IMG/VR virus record: IMGVR_UViG_3300013121_000030
Location: 32,001-96,000 of that record
Source: an uncultured virus (IMG/VR IMGVR_UViG_3300013121_000030)
Taxonomy: Duplodnaviria > Heunggongvirae > Uroviricota > Caudoviricetes
Direction: 5' to 3' (one strand)
Length of the DNA: 64,000 nt
Shown here: in pieces, positions 4,786 to 64,000 of the stretch
How positions within the stretch are numbered: position 1 is the stretch's first letter
How the letters are laid out: every line of letters starts with the position of its first letter
Translations under genes and position numbers: made by a program
Notes under the pieces: generated by a model
The model's input: only the letters and a program-made list of their open reading frames with translations
What the model was told of the DNA's origin: nothing
Databases searched by the model: none

Positions 4786-7700
4786 ATGCCCATCGAAAAC
4801 AAGGCCGAACGTAGTTGTAGTTTTGTGGACGCGCTGGTCCTGGGGTCCGCGCTTGCCGCCTTTTTGCGCCATCTTAACGGCGACGCGACAAATGGCCTCT
4901 ACAAGAAGGGCCAACAGCTCTGGCAGACACGGTATTCCGTGTCCTTTAAAGATGACCTGAAGCTCTTCCTGATTGAGCCTTTCGTTCAGGCGGGCAAGGC
5001 TCCCCAGCTTTTGGCCTCCAGTCGAGAGTTGATGCGTCTGACCCAAGCCAAGCGTATTATTTCGATCCTCCCGGATTTTCTCGCTTCGTTCTCGCAATGG
5101 CTTCCTGCACACCGGAACTCGTTTATTGAGTGCATGGACATGAGAACCAGAACGGAGGTTCTGGCACTGGCTAAGGTGGGCATGGATGCTGAGCCCGTGA
5201 CGCAGTTGGCGCAGCTTTCTGTTATCCGTCTGACAGGCCCCAACAAGGGAATGGTGGAGCAGTGGATTGATCGGGCTGCAAATGAAGCTGGAGTCATCGC
5301 CACCGATGATGCAGAAGCTCCGCTCAAGGGCATGGAGTCGATCCACGATTTGGGGGTTCAGATCTCGGAGTTGAACCAACAGATTACGTTGGAGCCAGAT
5401 GGCACCCCCCGTGAAGCCGAACTCATTGAGCATCGAGGAGATCTGCTCCAGAAACTTCAGGCAGAAGCTGACAAGAGTGCCACACCAGAGGCTGCTTTTG
5501 CGGTTGCAGCAGCAGCTGCGGCTACTCAGGGAGAGGACGGAGCTTCACGGATCTCCAGGAAGTACACTCTCACAGATGAACAGGAGGCTGTGATCCGCGC
5601 CGAGGGGTCCATTGTGGTGGCTGCGGGCGCCGGATCAGGGAAGACAGGGACTCTCATTGCTTGGCTGGACCACCTCGTTCACAACAAGGGGATCAACCCG
5701 GAGCGGATGGCGCTCATTTCGTTTACCCGGGCGGCATCCGCTGAGATTGCAGAACGGGCAAAAGGTCGCGCGGGGATTAGTGGGTCCTACATTGGCCGGA
5801 CGACCCACGCAATCGCAAGGACGGTTTTGAAATCTTTTGGTCCTTCCCATCAAGAACTCAACAGCCGTTACAAAGGCAAACTCCGTGAGGCCATCTTCAA
5901 AACGGAAGAGGCAGACAAGCTCTGGGACATTGCTCTCAAACAGGTTGAGATGGGGACTCCCAAAGGGGATGACGCTGACAAGGCTCAATACCTCAAAAAG
6001 GTATTGTTGACACTTATCCGGTCTGCCGCCTACCCTGACTTCTTTCAGAGCCTTCTGGATCAGCTCGATCGCGGAAAGATGCTGACCACCAACCAGTTGG
6101 GGGCTCTTGTCACCGACAAGTACAAGAATCTGCGCAAATTCCCTGATCTCTATCAGGGTGTCAAGGATATTGCTGAGGGGAGGGCTCCTGGGGCATCCAA
6201 AGTTGCTGCTCGGGAAGCCAAGCCGAAATCCCCCTACATGACCCAGCCAGCTGGAATGCGTTTCAATATCGGGGCCAAGGATTTACACGATCCGAAGGTT
6301 GACGTGGAGATGGTGCCCGGCAGAATTCGGCTGATCGTGGACAATTACATGTCTTCGGGGGTCAGTGTCGAGGAAGCCTATAAGATGGCCAAAGACGATC
6401 CAGACGCTCCGATCGTCCCGGCAGCTGCCTACGATGCTTATACTTGGCTCAAGCTCAATGACCCCATCCTGGGGCCGGCCATGGACTTTACGGACCAGAT
6501 TGTCTTGGCTCTCAAGGTGCTGGATGATCTGCCTCAAGCACGGGAAGCCGCGCAACGCATGTTTGATGTGGTGGTGGTGGACGAGGCTCAGGACTTGAGC
6601 GAAGTCCAGTTCCGGTTCTTCCAACACTTGATGAAAAAGACGCGCATTGGGGCCTACATTGGGGATGACAAGCAGAGCATTTACCGATTCCGCGGAGCGA
6701 TCCCCGAGAACTTCATCGCGCAGTCCAAAAAGTCCAAGCTTTTCCAGATGACCACCAACTTCCGAAGTGGGGAGGCCATCGTCAACGCAGCAAATCAACT
6801 CATCGCTCACAACAAGGGTCAGATCCCAATGGTCTGTTCGGCAGACCCCAAGAAGGGGGAGGGAGAAATTGGCTTCGTCCGAACCGCCTCTCATTCTGAG
6901 AGTGCTGAGATGGTAGCGGCCTCCATCGCAGAGTCCATCTCTTCGGGGGACTCTTCTGCCGCTGACTTCGGGATCTTGGTGCGAAACAATGCCGAGCTGG
7001 ATGCCTACGAGAAGGAATTGATCTCCCGGGGGATCCCATTCAAGAAGCTTCGCCCAGGGCCTATGTTCTTTGACAAGCCCCTTGTACGGGCGGTGATCTC
7101 GTGGATTCGCCTTGCGTCCCAGGTTGGGAGCCGGGAAGAGTTGAATGAGGCTGTCATGCATGCCTCCATGTTCCCAAGTTTTGGGCTCGGGCCTTCGTTC
7201 ATTTCAGCTTTGGCTAACATGACGCCATCCAATATGAGCTATGTGGATTACCTCCAAAGTGGCGCGAAGGTCTACACAGACCCAAAGTCCGCCTGGAAAA
7301 ACGCCAAATCCGTGGCTCCGTTTGTCGATGAAATGCGGGCAATGATGGCGATGGGAGGGGACACGGAGAGCCTGATCCTGGCGATCCTTGAAATCAAAGG
7401 CACCAAGGGTTCCCTCAAGAAGACCTTGAGGGGAAATGTCAGCGTTGATGACGTTGCCTCCAGTGGAGGAGGGGGGGCAGAGGCGGAGGCAGAGGCGGAG
7501 GCAGAAGCACTGGGTCCTTTGGCCCCAATCCTCAACATTGCGCGATCTGCTCCGAATCCTCAAGCATTCCTCGACTTCATCGTGAAAATGAAGGAAGCCA
7601 ACAGTAAGCTCCAAAAAGATGAGGAAAACTCAACGCCAGCAGTCTTGCTGGGGACAGTCCATACCTGGAAGGGACTCCAAGCACCTCATGTGTTTGTCTC

Positions 7701-15800: not shown

Positions 15801-18800
15801 GCGACGCTTTCGGGGGTCCTTTATGGGGACACGATCACGATTGCGGGAGTGACGCTCACAGCGAGCAACACTTTGACTCCTGGAGGGCTCGACTTCAACG
15901 TCGGCCAAGCTGCCTCAGGAAGCATCAAGTGCGTCGGGATTCAGCCTGGCGACACCGTGACGCTCAATGGAACTGCGTTGACGGCTGCTGGGGCTCAAAT
16001 TCCAGGTGCTTACAACTTCAACGAAGGAGTTCAGGCCACTGGAACGATCACAACCTCCGCCGTTCTGACAGGTGACCAAGTGGCCATTGGTGGGATCACC
16101 CTCACCGCGGCTGGCGCTCAGACTCCGGGTGGCCTCAACTTCAACGAGGGCACCAAGGCGACGGGATCCTTCACGGTCACCACCTTCCCGACAACTGCTT
16201 CTCTCACCATTGGTGTCAACGTGTTGGCGCCCGCGGGTGGGCCGAGGACTCCAGGTGGGGATGATTACGACAACACCTTGGGTTCGGCCGCTGCAATTGC
16301 GGCCGACATCAATGCCGCTCTCAACGATCCCCTGAATAGCTTTGCGGGAACCACAACTTCTTCCGTTGTGGGCACCACAGTCAACCTGACTGCGGTTGTC
16401 CCCGGAGCTGTGGGTAACGCCATCGTTACCTCGTCCACAGACGGCACCATTACCGCAGCAGCAGCGACGTTGTTGGGTGGTGTGGGTGACGATAACACCG
16501 TTGCCGCATCGATTGCGGCCGCCATCAACGACGCTCTGAACGGCTTGAATGGGACAGCCTCTGCCACGGCGCTTCTCAATGTCGTCACGGTGACTGCGGT
16601 AACTCCGGGGTCGGCTGGGAACTCTATCCCCCTCACCACAACAACCCCGATTCGGTTGGCAATTTCAGCTGCCACTCTTTTGGGTGGCGTTGGAACCAAC
16701 AACACCGTTGCAGCCAGCTTGGCTGCTGCAATCAACGATGCTCTAAATATCCCATTGCCGACAACCTTCTCGGCAACGGCTATTGGAGATACTGTTTTCC
16801 TCACGGCGGTGGTTCCGGGGGCTGCTGGAAACCTCCTTACGCTCGCAACCACTGCTCCAGGAAGGGCCCAACTCTCTGGGCCTCTCATGACGGGAGGTTC
16901 AGGGACCAACATTACAGCAGCTTCGAGCCTTGTGTCGGCGATTTTGGATCCTGCCAACGGTTTGGTGGGGACTGTCATCGCAGACAATGGCGCTGGCACC
17001 CTGAACATTGTGACGATTGAGGCTTATACGCCAGGGTCAGGAGGCAACGCCATTATTCTGGCGTCCTCAACCCTGGTTCGGATCCTCCTGTCTGGAGGCA
17101 CACTGGCAGGAGGCGTTGGGGACAACACAACGGTCGCAGCATCAATCGCGGCGGCCATCAATGATGCTGGAAACGGCATCGTTGTCACAGCCACGGCCGT
17201 CGCCGCACTCAATGTGGTGACGGTTACGGCGGTCACTCCAGGAAATATTGGAAACCTGATCACGCTGGCTACCAGCAACAGCACCAGGCTTCTGGCAAAC
17301 GGGGCGACACTGTCGGGGGGGATCGGGACGAACTTCACCGTTGCATCCTCGATCGCGGCGGCCATCAATGACGCTGGAAACGGATTGGCTGTGGCAATCG
17401 CCGCCAACAATGATGGGGGGTTGTCCGCCACAGTCACCGTCTGGGCACTCACACCAGGGCTCGTTGGCAACACCTACACCCTCGCGTCCTCGAATCCTGT
17501 CCGGCTGGCCATCTCTGGGGGATTCTTTGTGGGTGGTGCAACAACCACCCAGGTCGCCAGCAGCATCGTCCAGGCAATCAATGATGTTCTGAACGGGCTG
17601 ACAACGTTGGTGGAGGCTGACAATAGCGCGGGCACCTCCAACATCATTACGGTAACGGCAGCCGATCCTGGGTCTCAAGGGAACTACATCAGTCTCGCCA
17701 GCTCGACTGGGGTACGTCTCCCAGTCTCCGGAGCATTCCTGACGGGAGGCTCCAATCTGGGCGGCGGATATTTGGAGTTCTTGGATGCCCCCACCATTAC
17801 TTCGGACTTCTCCATTCTTGCGGGAATTTCGACGGACTCGTTGCCGGGCCTGTCTCAAACCAAGCTGCTGAACTGCGATATTGCACGTCGCTTCACGGTT
17901 GCGGGAACTTCAGGACGGTTGATCTACGACCGGATCATCTTGAGGAACCGCATCGTCCCAGGATCGGGCTCGATCACCTACCATTCTCAGCTTTCGCAAA
18001 CTGAACTTGTCATCCAGGGCACTAACGCCCAGTCCTTCACAGGACTGGTTCCCAAAGCAGCTGGGTTGGCAGGCTTTGCTGCGACAGTTCAACCTGCCTC
18101 GATGTTCGGCGAGGTTGGTTTCAAGGACGGGCAAATCGCGGTTGGGACCTATGGTGATGCTCGGGATGGGATGCCAGCGGTTCGGTTCTATGCGCAGGGA
18201 GGCGTCAATCCCCAGAACAACGTTGTGAAGATCAACATTGACGGAAAGCCGTTCACGGTGGTCTTCACGAATGCCTCCGGAGCTGCAATTCCTTCGGGAA
18301 GCTCTGCACTGGTTCCACTTGGTCCTGTATCCATTGCGAACACTGTCCTACACCAAATCCAAACTGCAGCTTCTGCGGCAGGACTTGGGACGGTGATCTT
18401 CCAAGAGGGGGCAGGGATCCGTTACGTTTCGCTGTTGGACACAGCAGACTCCCAGATCACGATTGGGACGGGAAATGGGAACTCGACTCTGGGGCTCGTT
18501 GCTGGGGCAACATCCACTCGGACCCTTGTGGAGCCAGAAGTTGTGGCCTCGGCACTCATGGCTCACCATGCGGGTTCGGTGGCGTCGGTCCTTTTGGACT
18601 ACCAGTCGCCCACGAACACTTACTTTGCAGCCCAAGCACTTGCAGGGGTGGTGAGGGATTCAACCAATGCGGAGTTCCTCTTCATCGAGTCTCAAGCCAA
18701 CAACGTCATTGGGTTGGGGCCATCCAGCAACATTTTGGTGCTGGATGCACTGACGTCCTCGTGGCTGCGTGTGGGCACGGGTTTGGATACTTCCTCTGGG

Positions 18801-51104: not shown

Positions 51105-51893
51105 TCAGATCGAGAGCAGCTTGGAGGCGCTGCCGGTCCCCAGAGCCTTGCTCTGGGAGATGGACTGAGAGGCCACGAAATGGCCGATCTTCGCCATGGT
51201 GGCGGGAGACGCATCTCCGGCGGCAATGTAGTTGTCGATCCCCACCGACCCCTTGTAGTTGTCGAGGTAGGACGAAGTGCTTGTGGAGGGGTCGACGTTG
51301 ACCCCCACGAGCACGGACTGGAGGGACTCCAGCACCCGAATCTCGGGGTTCAGCTTGGCTGCCTTGGCAGAGCTGAGTGCTGTCTGAGCACCCTGCATGT
51401 TCTCGCGGGAAGCGTTTTCCTCTCCATCGGTCAAGACGAAGAGGACCGCATTGACCAGGAAGCCCTTCTCCGTCAAGGACTTCCCGTAAGCGAGGGTGGC
51501 TGAGCAAGCATCCACAATCGCGTCGTTGAGGGCCGTACATCCATAGGGAGCGATGGCGCCGGCGTAGTCTCCGGAGGTCACATCCATCAACTCCTTGAAG
51601 CCGAAGGTCTCCTTCACGCGATCTGCGAAGGTAACCATACGGACCATCATGTTCGCTGCCTGAGGGGAACGAGCCGCCCCCTGGATGGCGGACTCGACGG
51701 CCTTCGAGAGGAGGTTGGCAAAACCCGCGACTGAGGAAGAACAATCGACGAGGATGGTGATGAGGGTGTAGGACGTTGCGCCCAGGTTGTTGGGGTCCAT
51801 GGCCGAGAAGACCTTGGACTGCCCGCCGAAACCGAAGTGCGACGGGTCAAACGTGAACGACTGCATCCCACTTGGGATATTGGACGATGCCAT
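51105..51893 (-). CDS. vWA domain protein (TerY-like)
   Basis: MIDAS DCSSS, GCTALNDA, LTDGEENAS; start taken at MASSNIP (51893). Confidence 0.8.
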   Translation of the reverse strand: MASSNIPSGMQSFTFDPSHFGFGGQSKVFSAMDPNNLGATSYTLITILVDCSSSVAGFANLLSKAVESAIQGAARSPQAANMMVRMVTFADRVKETFGFKELMDVTSGDYAGAIAPYGCTALNDAIVDACSATLAYGKSLTEKGFLVNAVLFVLTDGEENASRENMQGAQTALSSAKAAKLNPEIRVLESLQSVLVGVNVDPSTSTSSYLDNYKGSVGIDNYIAAGDASPATMAKIGHFVASQSISQSKALGTGSASKLLSI

Positions 51894-51913
51894 GGTGATA
51901 CCTGTGTTGAGGG

Positions 51914-52711
51914 TCAGAGGTTGAAGGTGGTGGAGTTCTCGATGCGGATGCCCTTGCTCCGCAGGGCATCGAAGAAGGAAGCGACGACGGCATCGTAGCC
52001 GGGCACGGGCACGGGCGACGTGCAGTCCTGTAGAACTACGATGCGCTGGAGGAAGGACGTGGGCACGTTGGCGAGGAGGTCCGCCACAGAGTTCTGGAGG
52101 CAGAAGTTGAGGGCCTCGCCAGCCACGACCAGGCAATCCGCCTGCGTGAGCGAGGCGAGGAGATTGCTGTTGATCTGGGTGCGGGGATCCCCAGGATCTG
52201 GCACCACTGCCTGGAAGATGCTGTAGTGCTCCGTCAGCGGATGGTCTCCCTTGACCTCCATCGTGAAGTTGTTCTTGATGGCCGCAGACCACTCCAGAGC
52301 GGCATCCATGAGGCTGGGGTGGATCGACCATCCCCAAGTGCCGATGACGCAGTGCTGGGGCCAAATGGTGTGGGTCTTGCCCGAAGCATCCAGAGCCTTG
52401 AGGTACTTCAGGGCCTTCTGGTAGAGGCCTGGAATGGCCGGCTGCCAAACGCCGTCCTCCACCTCCTTGGCGGTGATCGTCGTGAAAGGAGCCGGGTGAT
52501 CCCCCGCCCCATTCCGCCAAAACACCGGATGGAAGATGGCCCACACGTGGTGGGAATCCGCGGTCATGGTGACGTGGTGGATATTCTTGGCGTTCCGTCG
52601 AATCCAAGCCCCCAAACGAGCCATGTCCTGGTCCGCTCCCGGAACAAAAAGGGAGCCCTTGGGATCGCAGAAATCGTTCTGCGCGTCGATGACAAAGAGG
52701 TGGTTCCTCAT
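51914..52711 (-). CDS. Nicotinamidase/isochorismatase-family cysteine hydrolase (PncA-like)
   Basis: VIDAQNDFC, GSLFVPGA, DSH, WPQHCVIGT, KG...EHYS, AGEALNFC. Confidence 0.85.
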   Translation of the reverse strand: MRNHLFVIDAQNDFCDPKGSLFVPGADQDMARLGAWIRRNAKNIHHVTMTADSHHVWAIFHPVFWRNGAGDHPAPFTTITAKEVEDGVWQPAIPGLYQKALKYLKALDASGKTHTIWPQHCVIGTWGWSIHPSLMDAALEWSAAIKNNFTMEVKGDHPLTEHYSIFQAVVPDPGDPRTQINSNLLASLTQADCLVVAGEALNFCLQNSVADLLANVPTSFLQRIVVLQDCTSPVPVPGYDAVVASFFDALRSKGIRIENSTTFNL

Positions 52712-52967
52712 GATTATTTTTCCTTGTGTGTGTTCTGCCCCACAGGATGTGGGGGAGGTAATGTTGCCCCGAAATATACCCCGGGGGAATTATGGGAGGT
52801 ACTCCGCCGGATCTGGAATGATCCCCAATCCTCACGGAGGATCGAATGGCATGTGTGGCCTCAGGTGGAAGCTCCTCGTTTACTGGAAACCCTGTCCACA
52901 TCTCCATGCGACCATTCCGGATCTTGGCTGCATAGGCCCGGCCGCTCTGGTCGCTATCCTTGAGAGG

Positions 52968-59565: not shown

Positions 59566-59894
59566 GGTGCCTCTGTGTAGGTTTGAGGTATCTTGTAGCT
59601 GGGCCCTGGCTCCCAACCAAAGTGGTTGTTTTTGGAGCCCTTCTGCCCCCTGGAGTTGATTTGCTGCTCAAGGGTGAGACGCTGGACACCCATCCTCTTG
59701 ATGGTCCCGTCGTGCTCCCAGGCTTCCAGGAGGAGATCCGCATCCCGCTCCCCCTCAAAGATCTGGACCCCATGGGGCCGATCGTTGACGAGATAGAGGA
59801 CCAGGTCTGCTCCCGAAGCGAATCCAGTGGCGAGCTTGCAGAGCCAAGCCCGTGCTGCCTTGGAGCCTTGAAGACGGATGAGCGCGGAGTTCAC
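59562..59894 (-). CDS. Hypothetical protein
   Basis: GTG 6 nt after the promoter -10; coupled to the next gene. Confidence 0.5.
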   Translation of the reverse strand: MNSALIRLQGSKAARAWLCKLATGFASGADLVLYLVNDRPHGVQIFEGERDADLLLEAWEHDGTIKRMGVQRLTLEQQINSRGQKGSKNNHFGWEPGPSYKIPQTYTEAP

Positions 59895-59900
59895 AGGTCC

Positions 59901-59958
59901 AGTGTAGCATGCTGATCCGCGAGTTACACGTGTAACTTGTCCCCTGATGTGCTACACT
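59901..59958. promoter_or_regulatory. Back-to-back divergent pair of the conserved promoter
   Basis: agtgta-N16-gttaca-cg-tgtaac-N16-tacact; central 16-bp palindrome at 59922-59937. Confidence 0.85.
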
Positions 59959-59966
59959 CTCTCGTA

Positions 59967-61040
59967 ATGAGCACTTTCGCAACGACCATCCACACCATCA
60001 AGATCTCCGCACACCCGAACGCGGATGCGCTCGAACTCGCCCACGTAGGGGCGTACGTGAGCATCGTCAAGAAGGGTCAGTTCCAGACGGGTGACCGTGT
60101 AGCCTACATCCAGGAGCAGAGCCTTCTTCCTGAGGCGCTTCTGGACGAGCTGGGTCTCCGTGGACGTTTGGCGGGCTCCGAGGGGAATCGTGTCAAGGCG
60201 GTCAAGCTCCGGGGGGTTCTGTCCCAGGGGATTTGCTATCCGGCCCGGCCGGAGTGGGAGGTCGGCCAGGATGTCTCTGAGATCCTGGGAATCACGAAGT
60301 GGGAGCCCCCGATTCCGGCGCATCTGGGAGGCCAGATGCTCAACCTTGGGTCGCGCCACACCGCGACCTACGACATCGAGAATTACAAGGGCTTTCCTGA
60401 CGTCCTGGTCCCTGGGGAGGAGATCGTCGCCACGGAGAAGATCCACGGCACCTGCTGCCAGGTGGTCCTTCTCCCGAAGGGGATGGAGGTCGAGGGGAAG
60501 CGGGTGTTCGTGGGCACAAAGGGGATGGGGGCCAAGGGCCTGGTCTTTCGGGAGGAAGTCCCGAACCCCAACGTCTACATCCGAGCCACCGAGAAGATTC
60601 GGGGAATCTTGGAGGACAGCCCTCTCTTCGTTGGAGCCACAGAGCCTGTGATCCTTCTGGGGGAGGTCTTCGGGGAGGGCGTCCAGGATCTCCACTATGG
60701 AGTCAAGGGAGTCACGTTCCGGGCCTTCGACATCGTTCGGGGATTCCGCGGAGGTCAGAACTTCCTGGACGATTCGGATCTGGATGAGGCCCTTAATGCC
60801 CTCGGGATTCCTCGGGTTCCGGTCCTCTTTCGGGGCCCCTTCGACCTGGAGGCGCTCATGCCCCTCATCCGCGGCAGGGAGACCCTCTCGGGGAATGCGG
60901 TCCACATCCGTGAGGGGATCGTGGTCCGCACGACGAAGGAGCGGAAGGACCCTCAGATTCCCGCCCTGGAAGGTCGTGTCCAGCTCAAGCTGGTGTCGGA
61001 GGACTATCTCCTCCGCAAGGGGGGGACGGAGCACAACTGA
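59967..61040 (+). CDS. RNA ligase, DRB0094/Rnl2-like family
   Basis: OB-like N-terminus HPNADALE...LRGVLSQG; motif I TEKIHGT; GEVFG, AFDI, REGIVVR, LKLVS. Confidence 0.9.
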   Translation: MSTFATTIHTIKISAHPNADALELAHVGAYVSIVKKGQFQTGDRVAYIQEQSLLPEALLDELGLRGRLAGSEGNRVKAVKLRGVLSQGICYPARPEWEVGQDVSEILGITKWEPPIPAHLGGQMLNLGSRHTATYDIENYKGFPDVLVPGEEIVATEKIHGTCCQVVLLPKGMEVEGKRVFVGTKGMGAKGLVFREEVPNPNVYIRATEKIRGILEDSPLFVGATEPVILLGEVFGEGVQDLHYGVKGVTFRAFDIVRGFRGGQNFLDDSDLDEALNALGIPRVPVLFRGPFDLEALMPLIRGRETLSGNAVHIREGIVVRTTKERKDPQIPALEGRVQLKLVSEDYLLRKGGTEHN

Positions 61041-61914: not shown

Positions 61915-61915
61915 G

Positions 61916-61943
61916 TGTAACTTCGACGTTGGCGTGCTACACT
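61916..61943 (+). promoter_or_regulatory. Conserved phage promoter (TGTAAC-N16-TACACT) upstream of the tRNA-like RNA
   Basis: Motif copy. Confidence 0.75.
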
Positions 61944-61949
61944 GTCTTT

Positions 61950-62094
61950 GAACTCAACCCCTCCCTGTAGTTCAACAGGGAGAACACCCGGAAGTGATCC
62001 GGAAGTAGGCCGAGGCCCGGTTCGATTCCGGGGATGTGTGGACACAGGCTGAAAGTGTTGGAGGTTCGATTCCTCTCAGGGAGGGGTTGAGTTC
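61950..62094 (+). ncRNA. tRNA-like structured RNA with two T-arms and an extended closing stem
   Basis: Acceptor-like CTCCCTG/CAGGGAG extended to 18 bp; TA-GTTC...GAAC D-arm; two GGTTCGATTCC hairpins; no CCA. Confidence 0.75.
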
Positions 62095-62135: not shown

Positions 62136-64000
62136 ATGCCGACACTTCAGCTCTTCTCTCGCGGGGGACAACCCCGCACACTCTTCAACGTCCGTCTTGA
62201 TTCCTTTGCGGGAGTCGCGGCACCAGCTCCCTCCCCCAAGCACTTCGTGATTGTGGTGGACCGTTCGGGGTCCATGTGGGGATCCATGGAGGATCTGAAG
62301 AAGACCCTCCTTCAGCTCCTGGTGGTTCAGGGCTGTACGGATCCTGGGATGCTCGTGTCCCTCATCTCCTACTCTTCCCAGGGGGACATGACGGTTCACT
62401 TCCAGCGGGTTCCTGCTCGCCAGATCACTTCGGGCTCGTCCGCGGAGACCTCGATTCGGGCACTCCACGTCACGGGGCTGACCTGCATCTCGCAGGCTCT
62501 CTCCAAGGCGGTGGAGATGATCCAGCCTGGGGAGGCGACCCTGATTTCCCTCCATTCGGACGGCTACGCGAATGATCGGTCGCCATACACGGAGGGTCGT
62601 GCATTGGATGCGATCGTCGCGGACTTCTCGTCCAAGTATCCGAGCGCATGCATCTGCACGATCGCATACAGCGCCTACTCCGACTTCGGCCTCCTCGATC
62701 GGCTCGCGTCGGCGACGGGAGGTTCCTGCATCGTCGCCTCCTCAATCTTCGAGGTCTTTGAGGCTCTCTCTGCGTCCATGAAGACGCTGGAGGGGACTTC
62801 CAAGGCCATCGAGATCCCAGCCCAGGGGGCCGACTTCGTGGTGGCGATCGACATCGAGGCAAAGAAGGTCTACGGAGCCGAGGGGGATCTTCGGGTTTTT
62901 GGTCTCCACTCGGGAGCGACCATCCTCCGTCTCACCAAGGCTCCTGGGGCCTCTGAGGCAGCTCTGAGTCCCGAGTGGACGCTGGCCTGTGCGCGGGCCT
63001 TCCTGTCCATGAGGCGGCTGGCGGATGCCAAGGGCGCGGCCATGGCTTCTCGTGTGGAGGCCATGAAGAGCCACCTGAACGCGCTCCTCCCCTCGGATCT
63101 GGCCACCTGGTCCCAGGCCATGGAGGAGGCGATTTTCGGGGGTGAGGATCTCCACCAGGTTCCGTCGCTGGTATCCAGCGACGCATCCGTCCTCGACATC
63201 TGCAAGGTTCTGGCGCAGGATCCCTCGCACGTTCAGATCCACATCCCCAGCCTGATGGCCGGTTACAAGCGCCGGTCCATCATGAAGGTGGCAGGCAAGT
63301 GGGATGGGGGGACGCTCGTGGCCCCCAAGACCCGCACCAAGAATGCGGATGACAGTGAGTGGGTGGCCATCACGGGGGTGGATGTTTCGAGCACGAAGTG
63401 TTCGATGAACCTCGCCACGAAGCGCCCGATCGATCTCGTGGACCAGTCGGGAAAGGTCATCACGGAGGCCGGTGGGATTTCTCTGGTGCGGAAGCTCTCC
63501 AACTTCCGCAACTACACCCTGGTCGCGGACGGGAAGGTTCTGGTCCCGCGTCTCCGCATCAAGATCTCTTCCAAGGCCCTTTTTGATCGCCTGGTGCAGA
63601 TGAGGGCCATTCCTGCGGGGAAGTTCACTCCCACGGAGAGTGTGGAGATTGATTTCGAGGGACGTCCTCTCGTCTCGGACGAAGGGTTCTCGATTCCCGC
63701 AGACCTCTTCCAGCGGATGGCGCTCCTGCGGGTGATTTCTTCCACCCTCGCAGCCATCATGAAGGGGGAGTCCGCGGAACTCACCAAGGAGCAGATCGCA
63801 GCGCTTGCTGAGGTGGGTCTCAGCAAGAATCTGTTCGTGAACCTTCCGAGCACGGTTCCGTACGCAGACCGGGATCAGGCTGTGGCGAACGGCTGGATTG
63901 ACAGCTACGTGGCCTACTCGATCAGCCTGGGCTCCAAGGAGATCTTCTCGCTCGGGGAGTTCTACTCCGCGAATGAGTTCCTGGGTCGGTGGTGGGAGGT
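62136..64000 (+). CDS. vWA-domain protein, partial (runs off the window end)
   Basis: Manual translation of the N-terminal part: MPTLQLF...FVIVVDRSGSM (MIDAS), GLTCISQAL, LHSDGYAND; absent from the ORF track, consistent with no stop before 64000. Confidence 0.8.
   Translation, partial: MPTLQLFSRGGQPRTLFNVRLDSFAGVAAPAPSPKHFVIVVDRSGSMWGSMEDLKKTLLQLLVVQGCTDPGMLVSLISYSSQGDMTVHFQRVPARQITSGSSAETSIRALHVTGLTCISQALSKAVEMIQPGEATLISLHSDGYANDRSPYTEGRALDAIVADFSSKYPSACICTIAYSAYSDFGLLDRLASATGGSCIVASSIFEVFEALSASMKTLEGTSKAIEIPAQGADFVVAIDIEAKKVYGAEGDLRVFGLHSGATILRLTKAPGASEAALSPEWTLACARAFLSMRRLADAKGAAMASRVEAMKSHLNALLPSDLATWSQAMEEAIFGGEDLHQVPSLVSSDASVLDICKVLAQDPSHVQIHIPSLMAGYKRRSIMKVAGKWDGGTLVAPKTRTKNADDSEWVAITGVDVSSTKCSMNLATKRPIDLVDQSGKVITEAGGISLVRKLSNFRNYTLVADGKVLVPRLRIKISSKALFDRLVQMRAIPAGKFTPTESVEIDFEGRPLVSDEGFSIPADLFQRMALLRVISSTLAAIMKGESAELTKEQIAALAEVGLSKNLFVNLPSTVPYADRDQAVANGWIDSYVAYSISLGSKEIFSLGEFYSANEFLGRWWE

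What the first reader, a model, noticed from the sequence alone, without database searches (positions are those of the whole stretch)
61950..62094. Novel tRNA-like RNA with two T-arms and a sealed 18-bp terminal stem, near an RNA ligase
Seen: the predicted TSS (61950) is the first base of a perfect 18-bp stem (61950-61967 with 62077-62094) whose inner 7 bp sit in the acceptor position. Next come a canonical-looking D-arm, an anticodon-like arm CCGG-AAGTGAT-CCGG (GTG central but lacking U33), T-arm 1 CCCGG-TTCGATT-CCGGG, a further hairpin region, and T-arm 2 GGAGG-TTCGATT-CCTCT. There is no CCA. About 74 nt separate the D-arm from the final T-arm, versus roughly 22 in a typical tRNA. Inference: not a decoding tRNA. 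It could be a tRNA mimic or decoy for anticodon nucleases or uncharged-tRNA sensors, a Y-RNA-like scaffold, or a precursor cut and rejoined by the DRB0094-type ligase encoded ~0.9 kb upstream under the same promoter class. A vWA protein gene follows directly.
Basis: partly seen in the sequence, partly recalled or inferred. Interest (0 to 1): 0.8.

Follow-up and report, generated by a model that had tools for sequence, protein, structure and literature searches.

The report
Phage tRNA-shaped RNA with two elbows
This is a real, conserved phage gene for a tRNA-shaped RNA that cannot decode and carries a second T-arm module where the variable loop should be; the same RNA sits almost unannotated in cultivable Aeromonas T4-like phages, so its unknown function can be tested at the bench.

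Summary
Window 61950-62094 folds as described, with a perfect 18-bp terminal stem and MFE z = -5.3. A phage promoter motif that occurs 23 times in the genome ends 6 nt upstream.

It is not a one-off. A covariance model built only from four Aeromonas T4-like phages (Aeh1, PX29, Ah1, phiAS5) matches the window RNA full length (74 bits, E about 1e-13). In the joint alignment 98% of cells pair, and 26 of 40 pairs show compensatory changes.

The fold is a tRNA body:
- It keeps U8, A14, a covarying 15:48 pair, G18G19 and the T-loop.
- The acceptor helix is extended and closed, with no CCA.
- The "anticodon" hairpin has only a 4-5-nt loop.
- The variable region is a 4-bp stem carrying a second T-arm and an invariant GUG-UGGN-CAC hairpin.

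It is therefore a non-decoding, two-elbow tRNA mimic. Function is untested; a decoy or scaffold for factors that read the tRNA elbow is my best guess.

The links to the Rnl5 ligase, the vWA gene and Ro/Y-RNA are not conserved. The phage has its own Rsr and YrlA-like RNAs elsewhere.

Rfam, ARAGORN and the literature I searched do not describe this RNA. The scan has met other phage tRNA bodies with giant variable-region cargo, but no sequence look-alike of this one.

The parts
61915..61943 (+). Phage promoter: GTGTAAC (61915-61921), 13-nt spacer, extended -10 box TGCTACACT (61935-61943). It places the transcription start at or next to 61950.
   Evidence: The motif occurs 23 times in the genome with fixed spacing, often 6-12 nt before an ATG. 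The start site itself is inferred, not measured.
61950..62094 (+). The whole 145-nt tRNA-shaped RNA
   Evidence: Fold z = -5.3. Full-length 74-bit match to a model built only from Aeromonas phage copies. Single copy in its own genome.
61950..61967 (+). 5' strand of the 18-bp terminal (extended acceptor) helix
   Evidence: In the family alignment, 12 of the 14 modelled pairs change on both sides.
61968..61985 (+). U8-A9 linker and D-arm (4-bp stem, loop with A14, A15, G18, G19, A21 equivalents)
   Evidence: UAG.UCA and GGAGA.C are invariant across both lineages. One D-stem pair covaries. Position 15 covaries with position 48: A:U here, G:C in the Aeromonas phages.
61988..62002 (+). Blunted 'anticodon' hairpin: 5-bp stem and 5-nt loop AGUGA
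   Evidence: CM alignment. 4 of 5 pairs covary. The loop is 4 nt (PX29, Ah1, phiAS5, avDM12) or 5 nt (Aeh1 and the window).
62003..62007 (+). Conserved AAGUA linker
   Evidence: Invariant in all 7 sequences.
62008..62050 (+). Variable-region module: 4-bp stem P (62008-62011 with 62047-62050) enclosing T-arm 1 (62016-62032) and a mini-hairpin UGUG-UGGA-CACA (62035-62046)
   Evidence: All 4 P pairs covary: GGCC:GGCU here, UCGA:UCGA in Aeh1, UCGG:CCGA in phiAS5. T-arm 1 has 2 covarying pairs. The mini-hairpin GUGUGG.CACA is invariant.
62051..62059 (+). Linker GAAA..GU ending in the position-48 equivalent
   Evidence: GAAA and GU are invariant. The last base covaries with D-loop position 15.
62060..62076 (+). 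T-arm 2 (GGAGG / UUCGAUU / CCUCU), stacked directly on the terminal helix as in tRNA
   Evidence: 3 of 5 pairs covary. The T-loop is conserved.
62077..62094 (+). 3' strand of the terminal helix, followed by a U-rich tail (a possible weak terminator) and no CCA
   Evidence: Terminator-like call at 62063-62093.
59967..61040 (+). Neighbour, not a conserved partner: Rnl5-type RNA ligase with its own promoter copy
   Evidence: PF21189 + PF09414. Naegleria Rnl5 at E 2e-21. Promoter at 59950. Ligase homologue loci lack the RNA.
62136..64000 (+). Neighbour, not a conserved partner: 813-aa vWA protein (runs to 64577, beyond the window). It starts 41 nt after the RNA with no promoter copy between them.
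   Evidence: PF13519. AlphaFold pLDDT 88; fold matches are vWA plus beta-sandwich proteins (4fx5, ArnB), not Ro60. Two homologue loci lack the RNA.

Best explanation
The locus is an independently transcribed gene for a stable, non-decoding, tRNA-shaped RNA. It belongs to a small phage family found in this uncultivated 234-kb phage and in Aeromonas T4-like phages.

Shown by sequence comparison:
- The RNA keeps the tRNA core: an acceptor helix stacked on T-arm 2, U8/A14, a covarying 15:48 pair, a D-loop GG for the T-loop, and a normal-length 5-bp anticodon stem.
- Three changes rule out use on the ribosome. The acceptor helix is extended to 14-18 bp and closed, with no free NCCA end. The anticodon loop is cut to 4-5 nt. 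The variable loop is replaced by a three-way junction carrying a second T-arm and an invariant GG-containing tetraloop hairpin.

Inferred:
- The second T-loop docks on that GG hairpin, as T-loops dock on D-loops. The RNA would then display two tRNA 'elbows' on one rigid body.
- It is handled and stabilised by the host tRNA machinery.
- It acts in trans as a mimic, either a decoy or a bivalent scaffold. Its targets would be one or more proteins that recognise the tRNA elbow or T-arm rather than the anticodon or the CCA end. Candidates are tRNA processing or modification enzymes, or a host tRNA-directed defence factor.
For: Family and fold:
- A model built from 4 Aeromonas phage copies alone finds the window RNA full length at 74 bits, E 1e-13. 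Ordinary tRNAs and other tRNA-like hits score 15-37 bits in the same searches.
- On the 7-sequence alignment 98.3% of cells pair, against 34-47% when partners are slid. 26 of 40 pairs have changes on both sides, and 0 of 500 shuffles reach any measure.
- G-U pairs and the T-loop sequence fix the strand.

Conservation and non-decoding:
- Invariant blocks match tRNA tertiary positions, and the 15:48 pair switches G:C to A:U.
- The hairpin loop is 4-5 nt and the hairpin is missing in looser relatives.
- No member has an encoded CCA.

Gene status:
- It has its own promoter copy.
- It is single copy, with no close paralogue among the phage's 42 tRNAs.
- The two host lineages are unrelated. The window phage gives only weak PHROG matches for terminase and portal and none for several large ORFs. 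The others are Straboviridae.

Distribution of the core:
- The core (T-arm 1, UGGN hairpin, T-arm 2) recurs in other viral and metagenomic contigs.
- It occurs in only 2 of about 185,000 prokaryotic genomes.
Against: - There is no expression, end-mapping, modification or binding data. No public RNA run was listed as holding either locus.
- The elbow-to-hairpin docking and the trans-acting role are inferences from tRNA structural knowledge, not results.
- The strict family has only 6 distinct sequences from two lineages. Most compensatory changes are therefore a single between-lineage contrast.
- The alignment was fitted to the model.
- In the window the RNA lies 41 nt before the vWA gene with no promoter in between. 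It could therefore also be, or only be, a 5' leader.
- No candidate protein partner co-occurs with the RNA in both lineages.
Confidence: 0.45

Rival explanations
1. Cis-acting processing or stability element. The tRNA-like fold serves as a 'punctuation' signal, like plant mitochondrial t-elements or mascRNA. It could also act as a 5'-terminal stabiliser for the downstream mRNA: the host tRNA-processing nucleases would cut it off, or its closed 5' stem would protect the transcript.
For: - In the window the RNA starts at the predicted +1 with a fully paired 5' end, and it lies 41 nt upstream of the vWA ATG with no promoter copy in between.
- In Aeromonas phages it is the first of three abutting tRNA-like RNAs inside a same-strand gene array, about 50 nt before rI.1.
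- Several looser relatives lie 13-36 nt before an ORF.
Against: - A processing signal does not need an invariant second T-arm module or a conserved AAGUA/GAAA core kept across unrelated phages.
- The downstream genes are unrelated to each other.
- The 18-bp stem plus U-rich tail looks like a transcript end.
Confidence: 0.2
2. Decoy for a specific host tRNA-targeting defence nuclease.
For: - The general tRNA shape is preserved.
- Phage tRNA variants are known (from my background knowledge, not checked here) to counter tRNA-cleaving defences.
- The window copy has a GUG-centred loop.
Against: - The loop is not conserved in length or sequence and is absent in relatives.
- With no free CCA end, sensors of the acceptor end are unlikely targets.
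- Only a factor that reads the elbow or T-arm remains possible, and that case is already covered by the best explanation.
Confidence: 0.08
3. A Y-RNA-type partner of the phage's own Ro60/Rsr protein. The long terminal stem would bind Rsr and the tRNA-like part would tether an effector.
For: - The phage encodes an Rsr orthologue with TROVE plus a Ro60-type vWA domain, at genome 30086-31780 on the minus strand.
- No Rfam Y RNA lies within 8 kb of it.
- The RNA is modular: a long stem plus a tRNA-like domain.
Against: - It lies 62 kb from rsr, on the other strand.
- It lacks the GNCGAA motif, and its stem is a perfect duplex.
- Its order is D-arm then T-arm, not the YrlA order of T, acceptor loop, D.
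- RF02553 does not hit it at E up to 10.
- The phage has YrlA-like RNAs in its tRNA cluster, with full-length RF02553 matches at 37 and 29 bits.
- Five Aeromonas phages carrying the RNA have no TROVE gene.
Confidence: 0.05
4. A precursor that is cut and resealed, for example by the nearby Rnl5 ligase, to give a working tRNA or a circular RNA.
For: An Rnl5-type ligase gene lies 0.9 kb upstream under the same promoter class.
Against: - Removing the inserted module would still leave a 4-5-nt 'anticodon' loop.
- The Aeromonas copies have no ligase or vWA gene nearby.
- Two ligase-homologue loci have no such RNA.
- The helix end is blunt, not a nick.
Confidence: 0.03
5. A decayed partial tRNA duplication, that is, a pseudogene.
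For: Some deposited records and tRNAscan-type tools treat such genes as pseudo or 'OTHER' tRNAs.
Against: - Compensatory changes occur in six of seven helices.
- Single-stranded blocks are invariant across two unrelated phage lineages.
- The gene has its own promoter.
- There is no related parent tRNA in the genome.
Confidence: 0.02

Closest known systems
Bacteriophage T4 stable RNAs C and D (species 1 and 2 RNA, rnaC/rnaD)
   Same: - Phage-encoded RNAs of about 120-140 nt of unknown function, made alongside tRNAs.
- rnaC ends in a canonical T-arm.
- The Aeromonas copies also belong to T4-like phages and sit in a tandem of odd tRNA-like RNAs.
   Different: - No detectable sequence or model similarity. 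R1 and R2 do not hit rnaC or rnaD in the T4 locus.
- rnaC has one T-arm, no recognisable D-arm, and no long closed terminal helix.
Bacterial and phage YrlA Y RNAs (Rfam RF02553)
   Same: A non-decoding RNA that mimics tRNA with D- and T-arms, joined to a long helix formed by the two ends (PMC4201824).
   Different: - YrlA is circularly permuted relative to tRNA (T-arm, closed acceptor loop, D-arm).
- It carries a GNCGAA Rsr-binding motif.
- It lies within 4 kb of rsr on the same strand.
- It has one T-arm.
None of these holds here.
Class II tRNAs (Leu, Ser, bacterial Tyr) with a long variable arm
   Same: - Normal tRNA order and core.
- An extra helix emerges between the anticodon stem and the T-stem.
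   Different: - Here the extra arm is a three-way junction with a full T-arm.
- The anticodon loop is 4-5 nt.
- The acceptor helix is 14-18 bp with no CCA.
- Rfam tRNA and ARAGORN do not call it.
Other phage tRNA bodies with large structured variable-region cargo, noted earlier in this scan (e1-3451191, e1-2903477, e1-5382045)
   Same: The same design idea: a tRNA body, an abnormal anticodon loop, and a folded domain in place of the variable loop. All are found in phages.
   Different: - No sequence look-alike.
- Those cargos are knotted arms or plain hairpins, not a second T-arm with a GG hairpin.
- I did not re-examine those loci.

Membership tests
Canonical decoding tRNA (Rfam RF00005) | 7-nt anticodon loop with U33 and a purine at 37 | tested here: not met
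   The loop is 5 nt in the window and Aeh1 and 4 nt in PX29, Ah1, phiAS5 and avDM12. Drawn with a 7-nt loop, the window copy has A33.
Canonical decoding tRNA (Rfam RF00005) | 7-bp acceptor stem with an unpaired discriminator and a CCA end (encoded or added) | tested here: not met
   The helix is 18 bp (window) or 14 bp (Aeromonas). The discriminator position is paired and there is no encoded CCA. Post-transcriptional trimming cannot be excluded with these tools.
Canonical decoding tRNA (Rfam RF00005) | D-arm, T-arm and core tertiary nucleotides (U8, A14, R15:Y48, G18G19, T-loop) | tested here: met
   All are present and conserved. The 15:48 pair covaries.
Canonical decoding tRNA (Rfam RF00005) | Recognised by tRNA detectors | tested here: not met
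   ARAGORN finds none. RF00005 gives no hit at E up to 10 on the window locus and none at E up to 1 on the Aeh1 copy.
YrlA / bacterial Y RNA (RF02553) | Encoded within about 4 kb of the Ro60/Rsr gene on the same strand | tested here: not met
   rsr is at genome 30086-31780 (-) and the RNA at 93950-94094 (+). Five Aeromonas phages with the RNA have no TROVE gene.
YrlA / bacterial Y RNA (RF02553) | GNCGAAN0-1G motif near the 5' end | tested here: not met
   The motif is absent from the 145 nt. It is defined in PMC4201824.
YrlA / bacterial Y RNA (RF02553) | Order: T-arm, closed acceptor stem-loop, D-arm | tested here: not met
   The order here is D-arm, hairpin, T-arm 1, T-arm 2. There is no RF02553 match.
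tmRNA | tRNA-like domain with a CCA end plus a tag reading frame | tested here: not met
   ARAGORN's tmRNA search found none. There are no Rfam tmRNA hits.
T4 rnaC/rnaD | Sequence or structure homology to T4 species 1 or 2 RNA | tested here: not met
   Neither model matches the T4 rnaC/rnaD interval. The folds differ. The likeness is one of kind only.
This family (two-T-arm tRNA-like RNA of Aeromonas Straboviridae) | Full-length match with all seven helices and the invariant blocks UAG.UCA, GGAGA.C, GAAGUA, GUGUGG.CACA and GAAA | tested here: met
   74 bits against a model that did not include the window sequence. Conserved blocks are listed.

The most novel reading that the evidence does not exclude
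The RNA is a bivalent 'two-elbow' tRNA decoy. By presenting two T-loop/GG-loop elbows on a body that can be neither charged nor decoded, it would trap or re-target a host factor that reads tRNA shape. That factor could be a tRNA-directed immunity nuclease or a tRNA processing or modification enzyme. This would be a new class of phage counter-defence or host-takeover RNA, conserved from T4-like Aeromonas phages to an unrelated jumbo phage.
Probability: 0.15. Interest if true: 0.8.

Novelty: new variant of a known kind. Interest (0 to 1): 0.6.

Why it matters
Phage tRNA-like RNAs of unknown function have been an open question since T4 RNAs C and D were sequenced in the 1970s. This family gives a clean, strongly covarying architecture that I found in neither Rfam nor the searched literature.

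It contains a complete second T-arm plus a D-loop-like hairpin, built into the variable region of a tRNA body that has been made unusable for translation. The invariant single-stranded blocks suggest selection for shape and for specific contacts.

The same RNA sits in cultivable Aeromonas phages (Aeh1, PX29, phiAS5, Ah1). Deletion, pull-down and structure work are therefore immediately possible.

It also shows that standard tRNA finders either miss these genes or mislabel them as 'tRNA-OTHER', 'tRNA-Ala' or pseudo-tRNA.

Tried and rejected
- **Rfam and ARAGORN.** Rfam at gathering and at E up to 10, and default ARAGORN, found nothing at the locus. ARAGORN with introns allowed gave an artificial 'tRNA-Ile with 30-nt intron' call that I do not credit.
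- **blastn of the window RNA against 50,697 phage records.** No match. The family was only reached through a two-T-arm pattern scan.
- **The two-T-arm pattern itself.** It is heterogeneous (over 120 loci), and only some share this architecture.
- **MAFFT alignment of the window with the Aeromonas copies.** It misaligned the middle of the RNA, so I used model-based alignment instead.
- **vWA link.** The search for related loci with the vWA protein found no close relative. Loci of two vWA homologues (37% and 34% identity) have no such RNA. The vWA fold is not Ro60-like.
- **Ligase link.** Two homologue loci have no such RNA.
- **Upstream ORFs.** The window's upstream ORF (208 aa) and the Aeh1 upstream ORF (158 aa) are unrelated.
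- **Downstream ORFs of looser relatives.** They are unrelated to each other.
- **Expression.** No RNA holder was listed for the window locus or the Aeh1 locus.
- **Literature.** Full-text searches for two T-arms or T-loops, and for T4 species 1 RNA with 'tRNA-like', found no description of such an RNA. The Aeh1 genome paper reports 24 predicted tRNA genes, including a Val(CAC), plus 3 predicted pseudogenes.
- **Not attempted.** Complex prediction (protein-only tool) and 3D RNA modelling.

Full report
**What the window is.** The window is bases 32001-96000 of a 234,244-bp IMG/VR virus record with 55% G+C. ARAGORN finds 42 tRNA genes in the record, including an ordinary tRNA-His(GUG), but none at the flagged locus. 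The phage is not T4-like: its terminase and portal give only weak PHROG matches and several large ORFs give none.

**Checking the observation.** The sequence is as described.
- 61950-61967 pairs perfectly with 62077-62094. This is the only long-range inverted repeat of 15 nt or more in the 64 kb.
- Inside the stem lie UA, a D-arm, a hairpin, T-arm 1, a small hairpin and T-arm 2.
- The 145-nt RNA folds to -71 kcal/mol, against -50 +/- 3.9 for dinucleotide shuffles (z = -5.3).
- Rfam reports nothing relevant, either at gathering thresholds or at E up to 10 on a 351-nt slice. Not even the tRNA model matches.

**Promoter.** The ten bases GTGCTACACT upstream of the RNA occur 21 times in the genome. 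Listing the 9-mer TGCTACACT gives 23 sites. Almost all have GTGTAAC-like boxes exactly 13 nt upstream, and many have an ATG 6-12 nt downstream. One copy ends 6 nt before 61950. Another precedes the ligase gene, whose real start is therefore the ATG near 59967.

**Finding relatives.**
- blastn of the window RNA against phage records found nothing.
- Most of those loci are different things. One, from Aeromonas phage Aeh1, has the same overall layout.
- blastn with the Aeh1 copy found 13 records, all Aeromonas Straboviridae: Aeh1, Ah1, avDM12-TAAL, PX29, AsFcp_1/2/4, phiAS5 and phiWae14. The element is unannotated in most, 'tRNA-OTHER' in PX29 and 'tRNA-Ala' in phiWae14.
- The Aeh1 genome paper lists 24 predicted tRNA genes, including a Val(CAC), plus 3 predicted pseudogenes (PMC1524935).

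**Homology and structure.**
- I built covariance model R1 from four Aeromonas copies only, using a structure I drew by hand.
- R1 matches the window RNA end to end at 74 bits, E about 1e-13. Every helix is aligned and most pairs are changed on both sides.
- Ordinary tRNAs and other tRNA-like hits in more than 1 Mb of fetched phage DNA score 15-37 bits.
- The RNA is single copy in its genome and resembles none of the phage's own tRNAs.
- The model-based alignment holds 7 sequences, 6 of them distinct. 98.3% of cells are standard pairs, against 34-47% when the 3' partners are slid by 1-3 columns.
- 26 of 40 pairs change on both sides, and no shuffle out of 500 reaches any measure.
- Six of seven helices covary. 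The seventh, the 3-bp mini-hairpin, is invariant.
- Caveats: there are only two lineages, so many compensations are one contrast, and the alignment was fitted to the model.

**Anatomy.**
1. A terminal helix of 18 bp in the window and 14 bp in the Aeromonas phages. T-arm 2 abuts its 3' strand, exactly as the T-stem abuts the acceptor stem in tRNA.
2. U8-A9, then a 4-bp D-stem. Its loop begins with A14 and contains GG and a final A.
3. One base, then a 5-bp hairpin at the place of the anticodon stem. Its loop is 5 nt (window, Aeh1) or 4 nt (the others).
4. An invariant AAGUA.
5. A 4-bp stem P whose four pairs all covary. It encloses T-arm 1 and a hairpin GUG-UGGN-CAC that is invariant apart from the N.
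6. An invariant GAAA..GU linker.
7. T-arm 2.

D-loop position 15 and the base just before T-stem 2 (position 48) switch together: G:C in Aeromonas and A:U in the window. This is the classic Levitt pair, and it argues that the outer body really folds like tRNA. By analogy with the D-loop/T-loop contact, the GG of the UGGN hairpin is the obvious partner for T-loop 1. That would give a second elbow, but this step is inference.

**Why it is not a decoder.** The loop is too short and variable. The acceptor end is closed with no CCA. Looser relatives drop the hairpin altogether.
- An 88-nt type occurs in five contigs, a 105-nt type in two, and a 122-nt type in one. Others also keep the core of stem P, T-arm 1, UGGN hairpin and T-arm 2 inside an acceptor-like helix.
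- The core pattern is found in only 2 of about 185,000 prokaryotic genomes. It is essentially a viral feature.

**Neighbourhood.**
- The ligase has an N-terminal OB domain plus an RNA_ligase domain. Its best solved relative is the Naegleria Rnl5 enzyme, so 'DRB0094-type' is fair.
- The 813-aa vWA protein belongs to a large family of about 98 homologues at around 35% identity. Its AlphaFold model (pLDDT 88) resembles vWA plus beta-sandwich proteins such as 4fx5 and ArnB, not Ro60.
- Neither neighbour is conserved with the RNA. The Aeromonas copies lie between small unknown ORFs and rI.1. Loci of two vWA homologues and two ligase-homologue loci have no such RNA.
- Downstream ORFs of the looser relatives are unrelated to each other.

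**The Ro/Y-RNA idea.**
- The phage does encode an Rsr orthologue with TROVE plus a Ro60-type vWA domain, at genome 30086-31780 on the minus strand. That lies just outside the window.
- No Rfam Y RNA lies within 8 kb of it, and none reaches threshold anywhere in the genome.
- However, the gaps between tRNAs at genome 210906-211038, 211359-211502 and 211579-211711 hold RNAs in the YrlA order: T-arm, closed 7-bp stem-loop, then D-arm, inside a long terminal stem.
- Two of them give full-length sub-threshold RF02553 matches, at 37.4 bits (E 4e-6) and 29.1 bits.
- The flagged RNA has tRNA order instead and lacks the GNCGAA motif defined in PMC4201824. It sits 62 kb away on the other strand, and its homologues occur in five Aeromonas phage genomes without any TROVE gene.
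- The Y-RNA reading is therefore unlikely.

**How it most likely works.**
- Shown: it is a conserved, strand-specific, structured RNA gene with a tRNA core that has been disabled for decoding and charging. It carries a conserved second T-arm module.
- Inferred: it accumulates as a stable RNA, shows two elbows, and acts in trans on a factor that reads tRNA shape. I give this 0.45.
- The main rival (0.2) is a cis role as a processing or stabilising element. The RNA is 41 nt upstream of the vWA ATG with no promoter in between. In Aeromonas phages three tRNA-like RNAs abut each other inside a same-strand gene array.
- The remaining rivals are each unlikely: an anticodon-nuclease decoy, a Y RNA, a cut-and-rejoin precursor, and a pseudogene.

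**Comparison with what is known.** The closest in kind are T4 RNAs C and D and YrlA. Neither is homologous or shares the layout. Class II tRNAs share only the idea of an extra arm. This scan has reported other phage tRNA bodies with large variable-region cargo, but none is a sequence look-alike. I found no description of this architecture in Rfam 15 or in the full-text library. I rate it a new variant of a known kind, namely a phage tRNA-like non-coding RNA.

Noticed in passing
L176:817-2511 (-), genome 30086-31780, just upstream of the window: The phage encodes a Ro60/Rsr orthologue of 564 aa with TROVE plus a Ro60-type vWA domain. It has its own copy of the phage promoter.
   Followed up: partly
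L184:15506-15638, 15959-16102 and 16179-16311 (genome 210906-211038, 211359-211502, 211579-211711): YrlA-like RNAs lie between tRNA genes, in the order T-arm, closed 7-bp stem-loop, D-arm inside a long terminal stem. Two give full-length sub-threshold RF02553 matches (37.4 and 29.1 bits). They are the likely partners of the phage Rsr, yet lie about 180 kb from it, unlike the 'within 4 kb' rule for known YrlA.
   Followed up: partly
genome 206880, 207397, 207618, 210059, 210364 (L184 region): Further well-formed T-arm hairpins in the tRNA cluster lie outside any ARAGORN call. They suggest more non-canonical tRNA-like genes.
   Followed up: no
L130:4142-4258 (Aeromonas phage Aeh1), with equivalents in PX29, phiAS5, Ah1 and avDM12: A second conserved tRNA-like RNA directly abuts the two-T-arm RNA. 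It has a 15-bp closed terminal stem, a D-arm, a long hairpin with a 4-nt loop instead of an anticodon arm, a further hairpin, and one T-arm. It is unannotated in Aeh1.
   Followed up: partly
L130:4276-4397 (Aeh1 'tRNA-Val CAC'; the PX29 equivalent is annotated as a two-piece tRNA-Leu): A tRNA scoring 53 bits on RF00005 has a 53-nt stretch where the 7-nt anticodon loop should be. That insertion is far too short for a group I intron.
   Followed up: no
L127:659-746, L134:244-331, L170:3671-3758, L133:6286-6369, L137 (minus strand): A well-conserved 88-nt RNA type from viral and metagenomic contigs and one Bacteroidetes MAG. It has an 8-bp acceptor-like helix enclosing stem P, T-arm 1, a CUG-UGGA-CAG hairpin, a UUGG-containing linker and T-arm 2, with no D-arm or anticodon arm.
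   Followed up: partly
window 59880-59960: Two copies of the phage promoter face away from each other around a palindrome (GTTACACGTGTAAC). They drive the ligase gene rightwards and a minus-strand gene leftwards.
   Followed up: no
L143:3699-4874 (-) next to 5001-7478 (+): In a 223-kb phage contig, the vWA-family homologue lies divergently next to a PolyA_pol/CCA-adding-type nucleotidyltransferase gene. The window phage itself has no PF01743 gene.
   Followed up: no
window 51105-52907 (-): A second 600-aa protein hits the same PHROG (phrog_7371) as the vWA domain of the 813-aa protein, so the phage has at least two vWA-type proteins besides Rsr.
   Followed up: no
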